Part shown: in pieces, positions 5,770 through 60,619 of the stretch
Position numbering within the stretch: the first letter of the stretch is position 1
Layout: each line of letters starts with the position of its first letter
Source of the DNA: Eledone cirrhosa
Lineage: Eukaryota
Reading direction: 5' to 3'
NCBI GenBank assembly: GCA_964016885.1
Contig: OZ024748.1
Span: 930,001-994,000 of the forward strand
Length of the DNA stretch: 64,000 nucleotides
Program-made: the position numbers and the translations under genes
Notes under the pieces: generated by a model
The model's database searches: none
The model's input: only the letters and a program-made list of their open reading frames with translations
What the model was told of the DNA's origin: nothing

Positions 5770-5949
5770 AATGAAGGAATTGTGGTAAGGAACCAGATGG
5801 ACCATAATGCACCAAAGTACTCAATACTTAGGGTAGTAGAGTGGGTAATAGGAACAAGTATGTCCCCGACAGCAGAGCTCAAGCCGTTTCAACGGCTATT
5901 TCCGTCGAAACGGCTTGAGCTCTGCCGTTGGGGTCATACTTGTTCCTAT
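5770..5949 (-). mobile_element. Short fold-back element: 48-bp-arm hairpin (5848-5949) plus ACTCTAC..GTATTGAGTAC tail on the minus strand, inserted in (TA)n
   Basis: ataggaacaagtatg...catacttgttcctat inverted arms with a 6-nt loop; tail motif at about 5816-5843 (minus). Confidence 0.6.
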
Positions 5950-8579
5950 ATATATATATAAATATATATATATATATATATGTGTGTGTATGCATGTATG
6001 TATGCATATGTGTGTGTGTTTGTGTGCATACAATCCAACTGAGTCACTCACCTCAAGTTAGTCAAAAGCGCCCTTGCTGACATCTCTCTGTTCGCTTGAG
6101 TTCTTTTTTATTCAGATCATATCTATATTACATTTTGATTAGAGTAACTTTGTATTTTTTCTAACTGTATTCCTGATGCTTTTATTTGTGTGTGTGTGTG
6201 TATATATATATATATATACACACTTAGCATGATAGAATGTAAATGTTTATTAAGTACCGATTTATATATATATATATATATATATATATATATATATATA
6301 TATATGTATATATTTATATATATAATATATACAGTATACTATAAGATGGTAAGTAAATATGTTTTTTTTTTTTTTCCTCTGTTATTGTCCTTCTGCTCTG
6401 TTTTACTCACATATTAACGCATTCATGGGGTTTATCTGGTGTCAACTTTTTAAAACATGGAAGAATATTAGATGAAGTTTTTATAGTGCAAAATATTCAC
6501 TCAAGCTTTTTAATAAAACATGCTTTTACCTGACATTGTTTTAATCCATGGCGATTCATGCAATATTTTCAAGTGTTCTTTGTGATCCTTATTTTTTAAA
6601 TATTTGTTATTATTATTATTATCATTATTATTATTCTTTTTTTTTTTTAAACAAATTTGAGCCATTAAAAAAATTATTTCATTTGCTAAATTAAATTTGG
6701 TATGAATTTTAACAGTGAATATAACAGTAGGATAGCTTGATTTCATATATCATTTTAACATTTTTTTTTTATTTGTATTGTTTGTCAGTTTTATAACCCA
6801 AGGTAAGTATTAGCTCTTTAATAGGCTTATGTGTAATTTGAGAATTAGCAAATCGTCTTTCTACAAATGTATTTCTAGAATTTGGTCAAATTAATCATAG
6901 AACAAATAACTGCAAACATACATACAGGAAGGCTTTAATATTTTTTTTTATTATTTGATTTTTTTTTTTTTTTATCATATAGTTTGAAATTAGGTTCATT
7001 TCAAACATTTTAATAGTCTTATGTGCAATTTGAGATTTATTTATTAATTAATTATAGAAAGCAAATCATCTTTCTACAAGTATATCTCTAGATTGTGGTC
7101 AAATTAATTATACAGCAAATGATTGCAAACATATTCCTTGTTTTGTTTTTTCATCCCATAATATAGTTTGGTATTTTTATTTCCTAAAATCAATAAACAA
7201 AGGAAAAACCAGTACATCATACAAATACTTCATGGTTCAGGTGAAACAGAATGAAGTGTGTGTTACCCCAAATGATGGTCATGGGGATGAGCGGAAACAG
7301 CTCAACTACCTCATGGGGCTTGGTTTTAGATAACCATCTCTAATTTGATCAAACTGGGTTGTGAGGTGAATCAAGGGCAAGGATGCCAGAAAGGCCCAAG
7401 AAACCTATCAGAAAATGGCCAGTATTTTGTCTGCTTGGGGTTTTCAGCCTGCTGGGTGGTTAAGTCTAAGGCTTATTTCACCAGGTTGTTGTTGGGGAAA
7501 GCACCACTGCAGATCACTTCCCAGCTACAATGGGAAACTGATATGTCTAAACTGTGTGAAATGATATCATTAATTATTGTTTGAAATTTAGTTCATTCTA
7601 AACATTTTAATAAAAACTTCTGCTATTTCATTATAGTAGAGCCTTCTAAGCCATATATTCTTGTCTTGAGATATTTTTGGTCATATAGTTCTATAGTTTA
7701 GTTTAGTTGATGGATGGGGTGGAGCATGGCTGGGAACATCATTTTAAGTTATCTGGAAAAATGTCTTGTTTAGTATGGATCATAGATGTGTGTTTATTCA
7801 TACATTTTGTTGTAACATCTCTAATTGTTAAAATACTCATATACAGATATACAAATGCAATATATATATATATATCTGACATACACACATACACACATAT
7901 ATAAATACTTATATATATATATATATATATATACACTAACATACACACATATAGATCATGAATGCTTTATAATCTCTTAAGATTCTTTGTGTAACCGTTG
8001 TACTTGAAGTGTAGTATCATCACATTTCTCTTCATCTCTTCTTCCTCCTTTGCTGCACATTTGCTAATAATAAGCTAAATAATGATGATGTGTTGGTGTT
8101 CCTCTGCTAAATGCATGTCTTCTTGTTATTATTATTATTATTATTATTATTGTTGTTGTTGTTGTCGTTGTCAACATTTGACAGTAGTGTGTGGCTGCTA
8201 GTAACAACAATACCAGCTCTGCCTAATGTCACTTTATATATAGTATTTGTTCACTTGAAGAACAACATTATAGAAGTAAGATACTACTACTACTACTACT
8301 ACTACTACTGGTCATATACTGCTGATTCAACTGTAGTTACTAGTAGTTACAACTGCATCTCCATCATTTTACCTGTGCTTCACAATGAAACGGTCTATAA
8401 TTGATATTACATTTAGTTGGGTTGTTTTTTTTAAGAAAAAAGCAGCTTCTTATACATGTATTTTAATAGTTGTCATTTGAAATTTAAATAAAAATTAGTT
8501 TTCATATTTTTACAATATTTATGAAATCTAATTTTCTACCATTCTTCTTCATGATTTCTTTTTTATTCTATTTTCTTAA

Positions 8580-8828
8580 CCCTTTTGTTACCATTTTTCT
8601 AATCAAAAAACGCTGCTGTTAATTTTCTAATCGTTTTTTAAAATATTCAAGAATTTTTAGGGATTTAGTAATATAACTTTCTCGTTAATAATCTGATGTT
8701 TGGAGCATAACTTAATTAAGGTTATTTCATAAAATTATGATGGAAGGTTTTTTTAGATAAATCTGAACACTTTGAAATAAACATAATTGTATCATCATAG
8801 AACCAGGGCTGGTTTGGTATCAAAAGGG
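8580..8828. mobile_element. piggyBac-type MITE
   Basis: TTAA|CCCTTTTG ... CAAAAGGG|TTAA; internally similar to 51670-51915. Confidence 0.8.
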
Positions 8829-59860: not shown

Positions 59861-60239
59861 ACAAACATATATATATATACTGAAAAAATTAGCATGGTCT
59901 CTATATGAATATGACATGCACATTTATGAAGCGTTCCATATTTTTTCAACCAGTAATACACACAAACGCATATTCACACATACATATATATCTGTCTGTG
60001 TAAGAGATGATTTATCACTGAATTTTGATAATTATAAACAGAATATGCAGTTTATTAAAATTGACAATTCACATAAGTGACAAAGACAGAGACCAATTCT
60101 GGCCAGACTTGTCTCTCGGTGTGAATGACCCATCTAACCCTTGAAAGCATGGAAAATGGTGATGATATATATATATATAATGTGTGTGTATTCATTTTAT
60201 TAAGACTAATAGTGAGTCTTGTTACTCAGGAGTAACTCT

Positions 60240-60280
60240 CTGATGACCCTGTGATAGGTGAAACTCCAAAGTAACTATTT
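60240..60280 (+). ncRNA. Hammerhead core in a pLTR-like fold-back relic (60193-60330)
   Basis: CUGAUGA-CCCU-GUGAU-AGGU-GAAA-CU-CCAA-AG-UA; flanked by inverted arms 60193-60213 and 60274-60296, then AATAAA and TCTAC..GTATTGAGT. Confidence 0.5.
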
Positions 60281-60619
60281 AGCCTTAATAAAATGTATAT
60301 TATTAAAATTCTACGTCGGTATTGAGTCCTCTTTTCTCTCAGCCATCAACCACATACAGATATATATATATACACACATATATATATAACACAGATTCTT
60401 ATCATTATTTTGTACTTGTTGGATTATAGTTTGTATTTAATGTCATAATAATGTGAGGAATGTGATAGCTAGAGACACAGATGAGTGTCATAGCTGGAGT
60501 TACATCTGATGTGACTGTCATCCATTGTGACTAGTTACATGTAATGTGACATCCAGTCACTTCTCATGTGACATCTAAGGTCAAATCCAATGCTTTAACA
60601 GGGAAACTGGTATTTCTTT

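What the first reader, a model, noticed from the sequence alone, without database searches (positions are those of the whole stretch)
5770..60330. Recurring non-coding fold-back elements with hammerhead motifs, clustered at (TA)n tracts
Seen: at least eight self-complementary units of mostly unrelated sequence (5848-5949, 27975-28379, 28384/29526, 40279/43355, 46457-46904, 50085-50214, 59707-59800, 60193-60296). Most abut a TA or TG microsatellite, and most contain a CUGANGA-stem-GAAA motif or a decayed version of it, so the ribozyme is duplicated head-to-head on both strands. Unpaired copies occur at 23994-24059 and 44506-44556. Established: Penelope-like elements carry minimal type I hammerheads in their pLTRs and often form inverted partial pLTRs; retrozymes are non-autonomous hammerhead retroelements but are usually direct or tandem repeats. 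Inference: these are ORF-less, palindromic pLTR-only insertions mobilised by Naiad/Penelope RT plus GIY-YIG nuclease targeting (TA)n, perhaps a distinct non-autonomous class. Transcription from either strand would give a ribozyme plus long dsRNA.
Basis: partly seen in the sequence, partly recalled or inferred. Interest (0 to 1): 0.85.

Follow-up and report, generated by a model that had tools for sequence, protein, structure and literature searches.

The report
Fold-back stubs of Hydra-clade Penelope retroelements
These hairpin-shaped DNA inserts are real, but they are most likely dead-end leftovers of a known jumping-gene group (Penelope-like, mostly Hydra clade) rather than a new mobile element, and their ends line up with a conserved pair of predicted small RNA hairpins that likely tell the enzyme where to start copying.

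Summary
All eight inverted repeats are present, and 6 of 8 end within 30 nt of a (TA)n tract (about 1 expected). A complete minimal hammerhead lies in both arms of only 3 of 8; the others carry a mutated, partial or no core. They match the published insertion unit of Penelope-like elements: 5'-truncated, head-to-head, with a tail on one arm. Reads show high-copy families folding back at many different points, so no replicating palindromic class is supported. In a fold-back transcript the ribozyme fold is predicted to be masked by about 83 kcal/mol. One result goes beyond what I found in print: Hydra 5' regions carry two conserved bulged hairpins about 60-80 nt apart, and insertion ends usually fall 0-6 nt before one of them. 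This likely marks two reverse-transcription start sites and explains the one-armed tail. Verdict: a known kind of product with a testable mechanistic lead.

The parts
4522..4726 (-).
4765..5111 (+). Element I, decayed 3' fragment of a Hydra-type endonuclease ORF between the arms
   Evidence: tblastn E 5e-7; BLASTP to P0003 E 6e-8
5153..5460 (+). Element I, direct arm with decayed hammerhead and microsatellite-interrupted tail hairpin
   Evidence: related to 44506 copy
5770..5847 (-). Element A tail, with hairpin 1 at 5842-5819
5848..5949 (.). Element A fold-back, centred on the loop of hammerhead helix II; CUGANGA half absent
23860..24060 (-). Unpaired pLTR end: hammerhead (core 24051-24045, decayed helix II), hairpin 1 at 23944-23925, tail into TA
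25505..26347 (-). 5'-truncated Hydra-clade ORF (linker and C-terminal endonuclease; homology 26209-25547); the 1.5 kb down to 24060 is its inferred 3' UTR
27836..27930 (+). Unpaired decayed pLTR; a shorter copy of the same family lies at 43416-43460 (-)
27931..28379 (.). Element F fold-back (27975-28173/28181-28379) with 44-nt AC-rich tail on the left; core plus helix II only; no Hydra hairpin, clade unknown
28384..29560 (.). Element G: inverted arm 28384-28514, direct arm 29396-29526 plus 34 nt to TA; complete hammerhead with long helix II in both arms
40280..43354 (.). Element H: arms 40280-40590 and 43071-43354 around a 2.3-kb TA array; hammerhead with U4 change in both arms; no tail on either
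44506..44660 (+). Unpaired pLTR: decayed hammerhead at 44511, hairpin 1 at 44583-44628
46364..46904 (.). Element E fold-back (46457-46904) with tail on the left; complete hammerheads at 46802 (+) and 46559 (-); hairpin 1 decayed or uncertain
50075..50285 (.). Element B fold-back (50075-50147/50152-50224), centre at the 5' edge of the hammerhead; G8 change in both arms; tail with hairpin 1 at 50231
59707..59866 (.). Element C, same family as B, different and decayed centre; tail with hairpin 1 at 59807
60189..60359 (.). Element D, decayed fold-back; core at 60240 in one arm; tail with hairpin 1 at 60308

Best explanation
The fold-backs are head-to-head pairs of short Penelope-like pLTR ends in TA microsatellites, most likely one-off insertion products of autonomous elements (Hydra clade for at least five of nine), likely made when both ends of a cut in (TA)n prime reverse transcription and the two short cDNAs join. 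Shown: geometry, clade motifs, the twin hairpins and the position of insertion ends. Inferred steps: (1) the element's protein cuts both strands of (TA)n; (2) it binds a bulged hairpin (pattern RCTC-stem-YY-GAGY) and starts copying a few bases 5' of it; (3) the RNA has two such hairpins, so one end starts before hairpin 1 (no tail) and the other before hairpin 2 (tail containing hairpin 1); (4) both cDNAs stop early and anneal through a self-complementary patch, often in or beside the hammerhead; (5) the product lacks hairpin 2, so it could not recreate itself with its tail. The hammerhead would be a passenger, masked in fold-back RNA.
For: All 9 elements with hammerhead remains point 3' ends outward. 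Seven of 9 have a tail on exactly one arm. The tail-less arm stops 5, 6 and 6 nt before hairpin 1 in A, B, C, 4 nt before the ACTC of the uncertain hairpin in E, and about 9-12 nt before it in D (by eye). The window ORF has CxCx5C, CxxC before E, CxH after N and no CCHH; full-length homologues have RWK and DKT: the Hydra definition (PMC8557442 section 11). Among 80 related loci, 35 of 59 with room have a sense hammerhead within 900 nt after the endonuclease and 30 of 80 have the hairpin, none antisense. Upper-stem pairs covary: 31, 27, 23 of 34 against shuffle means 23.6, 19.3, 13.4. A second hairpin is found in 11 of 15 5' pLTRs by pattern. ORF-bearing loci L052 and L073 show the same inverted, TA-anchored arm ending 4 nt before hairpin 2. 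Reads show many junctions per family. In vitro, an anole Penelope protein cuts and extends both strands and starts at two internal sites that define the tail, without needing hammerhead cleavage (PMC11167929, parts 1-2 of 4 read).
Against: Element H has no tail on either arm and a 2.3-kb TA spacer; G's inverted arm stops 8 nt after the cleavage site; F lacks the hairpin. Three ends among related loci do not fit (L042, L015, and L051 at 85% identity), and 5 of the 7 fitting rows come from one family. The covariation shuffle ignores relatedness. E's centre recurs: 18 reads from 12 starts in X21 and 2 contigs in X1 carry a 2-nt gap beside it, and one X5 contig spans it. Variants shared by both arms (B, H) fit one source RNA, snap-back or later arm-to-arm conversion equally. 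No full-length parent from this genome was available, so hairpin 2 is not seen for these families. 74 joints and 702 loose ends were not shown.
Confidence: 0.7

Rival explanations
1. Same Penelope origin, but each fold-back comes from one cDNA that snaps back on a template hairpin and is extended along itself (self-priming, related to the proposal in PMC3846280).
For: A is centred on the helix II loop. Both arms share rare variants in B and H. E's centre recurs in reads. H and G do not show the two-site pattern.
Against: The second arm should stop anywhere, yet it stops 4-6 nt before hairpin 1 in A, B, C and (uncertain hairpin) E, where ordinary insertions of related families also end.
Confidence: 0.17
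2. A replicating, ORF-less palindromic family mobilised in trans.
For: Nine fold-backs in 64 kb; very deep coverage of arms; E's centre is seen in other reads and in a second organism's contig. Non-autonomous Penelope derivatives exist (PMC8557442 passage on Chlamys; bioRxiv 10.64898/2026.07.22.740005, part 1 of 5 read).
Against: Depth falls 6- to 31-fold between 46688 and 46678 in all four runs, so most copies do not cross E's centre; many other junctions exist; B and C differ in centre; a tailed product lacks hairpin 2; ORF-bearing elements show the same geometry.
Confidence: 0.07
3. Assembly or read chimeras.
For: G's arms are 100% identical; none of the 23 listed pieces bridges a centre and a unique flank.
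Against: Eight of nine arm pairs differ (78-99%); asymmetry follows a biological rule; short-read contigs and raw Illumina reads show strand-switch joints in family B.
Confidence: 0.04
4. MITE or foldback DNA transposons that carry hammerhead-like words by chance.
For: Inverted ends in TA context; 45033-45344 looks like this.
Against: Hammerheads enriched, uniform outward polarity, one-sided tails, and the same hairpin in ORF-bearing retroelements.
Confidence: 0.02

Closest known systems
Hydra clade of C-terminal endonuclease Penelope-like elements (Craig et al. 2021, PMC8557442; abstract passages, section 11, supplement part 2 and search passages read)
   Same: Endonuclease motifs, hammerhead near the 3' end often with a mismatch at the base of helix II, (TA)n insertion; the supplement lists an Octopus family and Penelope-13_HM with an inverted truncated copy and hammerheads on both strands.
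   Different: Here most insertions are truncated to 50-300 nt. The twin hairpins are visible in two published consensus sequences (Hydra-2_Amil 3' end; Hydra-1_Ajap starts 2 nt before hairpin 1), but the main text has no 'hairpin' or 'stem-loop'.
Typical Penelope insertion unit (Arkhipova et al. 2013, PMC3846280; passages read)
   Same: Inverted pLTR, head-to-head, palindrome at the junction, optional tail on one inverted arm.
   Different: Tail about 50-85 nt from hairpin 1 here against 30-40 bp; that paper favours self-priming on an antisense template.
Minimal hammerheads of truncated Penelope-like elements (Cervera and de la Pena 2014, PMC4209133; parts 1-2 of 4 read)
   Same: Short palindromic helix III, extra base after A9, pairs on opposite strands 100-700 bp apart, most copies without an ORF.
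   Different: That paper did not dissect junctions or tails in the parts I read.
Animal non-LTR retrozymes (PMC7229834, passages; bioRxiv 10.64898/2026.07.22.740005, part 1 of 5)
   Same: ORF-less, type I hammerhead, Penelope-derived.
   Different: Retrozymes are same-sense tandem repeats of 150-450 bp; these are inverted pairs with one sense ribozyme per transcript.
Naiad (PMC8557442)
   Same: (TA)n preference, inverted truncated copies.
   Different: N-terminal endonuclease and no canonical hammerhead; neither fits.

Membership tests
Hydra-clade PLE | C-terminal GIY-YIG-type endonuclease after RT | tested here: met
   Window ORF aligns to the C-termini of 9 RT-bearing proteins and stops there; Pfam itself gave no hit
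Hydra-clade PLE | CxCx5C linker; CxxC and CxH beside conserved E and N; no CCHH | tested here: met
Hydra-clade PLE | RWK and DKT motifs, RT phylogeny | tested here: inconclusive
   Present in homologues; the window holds no RT part and no tree was built
Hydra-clade PLE | Hammerhead near 3' end and (TA)n insertion | tested here: met
Hydra-clade PLE | Each ORF-less fold-back traceable to a Hydra parent | tested here: inconclusive
   By shared hairpin for A, B, C, D, I; E uncertain; G, H by spacing only; F not; no parent sequence available
PLE insertion unit | Head-to-head inverted 5'-truncated copy | tested here: met
   9 of 9
PLE insertion unit | Tail on one arm only | tested here: met
   7 of 9; G partial, H none
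PLE insertion unit | Target-site duplication | not testable with these tools
   Ends lie in microsatellites; no empty allele among the listed joints
Naiad | N-terminal endonuclease | tested here: not met
Naiad | No canonical hammerhead | tested here: not met
Non-LTR retrozyme | Two or more same-sense hammerhead units in tandem | tested here: not met
   None in the window; a 77-nt tandem relative of B occurs in reads
Non-LTR retrozyme | Self-cleaved circular RNA | not testable with these tools
   No RNA data laid
Replicating palindromic family | One fold-back centre shared by most copies | tested here: not met
   Many junctions; depth drops 6- to 31-fold at E's centre; a minority may share it

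The most novel reading that the evidence does not exclude
Hydra-clade Penelope elements place reverse transcriptase with two tandem bulged RNA hairpins; each end of the cut DNA is primed from one of them, so tail length equals hairpin spacing and every tailed fold-back is a footprint of double-ended priming. This would give a defined RNA signal for the unexplained inverted-plus-tail architecture of Penelope insertions.
Probability: 0.55. Interest if true: 0.6.

Novelty: new member of a known kind. Interest (0 to 1): 0.33.

Why it matters
As elements, these are ordinary: they show how a known retroelement group litters an animal genome with short perfect hairpins, which could feed dsRNA pathways if transcribed (untested) and can be misfiled as MITEs. 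The side result matters more. How Penelope elements make inverted copies and tails is called unresolved in PMC8557442, and only one clade has in vitro start sites (PMC11167929). A conserved, covarying pair of hairpins that predicts insertion ends to within a few bases makes that question testable by simple template mutations.

Tried and rejected
No genome is held, so genome-wide enrichment and centre counts could not be run. Rfam gave no listed hammerhead match; miRNA and snoRNA rows are hairpin or microsatellite noise. The repeat finder was swamped by TA arrays. Pfam found nothing for the endonuclease fragments or 4 of 5 homologues, and only a sub-threshold hit for the fifth. Idea rejected: that B's centre is a long helix II and its CTGATAA is chance; reads show it is the real core with a G8 change. 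Idea rejected: a 5'-truncation hot spot at 46790; the molecule ends there coincide with AATT sites in a RAD library. A core-like word at E's centre (46662) is treated as chance, since any palindrome supplies its helix II. Run search: no RNA holder listed. Atlas search of the long host ORF gave no hit above 0.81. Earlier-findings look-ups by place, protein and two word sets were empty. Literature: eight searches listed no paper on a palindromic pLTR-only class or on Hydra tail hairpins; most hits were seen as listings only, the library lacks most subscription papers and Repbase, and supplements of the bioRxiv preprint and of PMC11167929 were not seen.

Full report
SETTING. The window is 71% A+T animal DNA, about 28% microsatellite. 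No genome is held. From recalled repeat content I take it for a cephalopod; no call shows this.

OBSERVATION. All eight inverted repeats exist, with arm identities of 92-100%. Six of 8 end within 30 nt of (TA)4+ against 0.98 expected. A strict type I hammerhead descriptor gives 7 hits against 0.63 +/- 0.80 in 60 shuffles; six are the paired arms of G, H and E, each with a 6-nt palindromic helix III. B has a whole hammerhead with a G8 change in both arms; 99% of summed contig depth from other copies in X1 reads the canonical base. F keeps core and helix II only, D has one core, and A and C have lost the 5' core. So 'ribozyme on both strands' holds for 3 of 8 intact and 2 more damaged.

WHAT THEY ARE. 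In all 9 elements the hammerhead remains point outward, so arms join 5' to 5'. Seven carry extra sequence on one arm only. This is the published Penelope insertion unit (PMC3846280 passages; PMC8557442 passages), and opposite-strand pairs of minimal hammerheads 100-700 bp apart were reported as probable truncated elements (PMC4209133). The window holds the link to coding elements. Element I encloses an endonuclease fragment. The ORF at 26347-25505 is followed by 1.5 kb and then the unpaired hammerhead near 24000. That ORF matches the C-termini of 9 RT proteins and has the CxCx5C, CxxC and CxH motifs without CCHH, the definition of the Hydra clade, which carries hammerheads and inserts into (TA)n (supplement). 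Naiad is excluded.

ONE FAMILY OR MANY ONE-OFFS. I laid four runs on 46330-50400. Arms of E and B are far deeper than unique flanks (X4: about 1,000-5,400 against about 8; the tool warns this is no copy number). Of 15 joints listed (74 not shown), four join E's arms at other points (46558>46797, 46559>46795, 46610>46763, 46714>46772) and eight do so for B; those near 50173 may be biased by the window copy's own mismatches. Depth falls from 46688 to 46678 in every run (104,161 to 5,960; 890 to 50; 75 to 2.4; 738 to 113), so most copies do not cross E's centre. Against my reading, 18 reads from 12 starts and 2 contigs show a 2-nt gap beside that centre and one contig of organism B spans it: the centre recurs or is a natural hairpin of the parent. 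B and C, one family, have different centres. No listed piece bridges a centre and a unique flank, so these exact loci are not confirmed by independent reads; diverged arms and strand-switch joints in Illumina data argue against artefact.

THE TWIN HAIRPINS. Tails of A, B, C, D and the copy near 24000 share a bulged hairpin (RCTC-stem-YY-GAGY): 6 distinct window sites, one unexplained at 2976, against 0.18 by chance. I fetched 80 loci encoding relatives of the endonuclease (best 80 of 248). 35 of 59 with room have a sense hammerhead within 900 nt downstream. 30 of 80 have the hairpin, all sense; one (L066) is probably chance. From 56 hammerhead anchors I kept 45, dropping duplicates and weak ones; 37 of the 43 with room have the sequence-only pattern 33-60 nt after the cleavage site (background 2.4%), and the three pairs above the bulge pair in 31, 27 and 23 of 34 distinct sequences, reached by 0, 0 and 1 of 5,000 shuffles that ignore relatedness. 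Eleven of 15 5' pLTRs show a second hairpin by pattern, about 59-83 nt further on and shortly before the start codon; two more show variants by eye, L042 has one, and L068 ends just before it. Of 16 comparison rows, 7 end 0-4 nt before a hairpin (5 from one family), 3 concern the L068/L016/L015 family ending about 3-6 nt before hairpin 2, 3 are hammerhead-only matches between families, and 3 do not fit (L042, L015, L051). L054 adds one fitting end. L052 and L073 have inverted, TA-anchored arms that end 4 nt before hairpin 2. In the window the tail-less arms stop 5, 6, 6 and 4 nt before hairpin 1 in A, B, C and E (E's hairpin uncertain), and TA begins 52-85 nt after hairpin 1 starts in A, C, D and the 24000 copy. 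Two published consensus sequences show the hairpins, one starting 2 nt before hairpin 1, while that paper's main text never mentions a hairpin.

MECHANISM. Established: an anole Penelope protein cuts and extends both target strands, starts at two internal RNA sites that bound the tail, and does not need hammerhead cleavage (PMC11167929). Inferred for Hydra: each hairpin positions the enzyme, the two cut ends use the two sites, and the short cDNAs join through self-complementary patches. A is centred on the helix II loop, B at the hammerhead's 5' edge, and several E-family junctions lie 5-39 nt before the core. Because hairpin 2 stays behind, a tailed product could not recreate itself. Snap-back of one cDNA remains the main rival and may account for G and H. 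In a fold-back RNA, forcing E's hammerhead helices costs 82.6 kcal/mol against 4.0 for the single arm, so the ribozyme is predicted to be masked.

VERDICT. Real, enriched, and explained by a known element type; not a new class. Two earlier AI notes on other genomes reached the same view; they are unchecked and not used as support. The twin-hairpin rule is the part worth following up; I did not find it in eight searches of a partial library.

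Noticed in passing
window 59842-59945 (+): U6 snRNA-like copy (47.7 bits, gathering 44) directly behind the tail of element C; strong likeness starts about position 38 of the model.
   Followed up: partly
reads laid on window 50155-50199: A relative of family B occurs as a 77-nt tandem unit with a 6-bp helix I (66 reads, 12 starts in X21): smaller than the 150-450 bp reported for animal retrozymes.
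   Followed up: no
window 45033-45344: Old inverted repeat (72.9%) with no hammerhead and no TA within 270 nt; MITE-like.
   Followed up: partly
window 21457-22912 (-) and 30703-32256 (-): Two 94% alike LINE fragments with RVT_1 and PHD hits, both beside TA arrays; RTE-like by recall.
   Followed up: no
window 52388-54019 and 54794-58906 (+): Long low-complexity host ORFs, no Pfam hit, no clear Atlas hit; GPATCH8/ZNF804-like by recall only. Elements C and D lie 0.8-1.4 kb behind the stop.
   Followed up: partly
window about 24230-24130 (-); L039, L050: Polypyrimidine tract and AG upstream of the hammerhead, possibly a retained intron in the Hydra 3' region.
   Followed up: no
window 27836-29560: Three insertions in a chain: F abuts the 3' end of an unpaired pLTR and G abuts F.
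   Followed up: partly
window 46663-46698: All 3 mismatches between E's 224-nt arms lie within 18 nt of the centre; suggests arm homogenisation or mutation at the hairpin tip.
   Followed up: no
window 43416-43460 (-): A 45-nt insertion in TA that begins about at the hammerhead cleavage site of the 27836 family.
   Followed up: no
window 2976 (-): A match to the tail-hairpin pattern next to TA with no hammerhead upstream; probably chance.
   Followed up: partly
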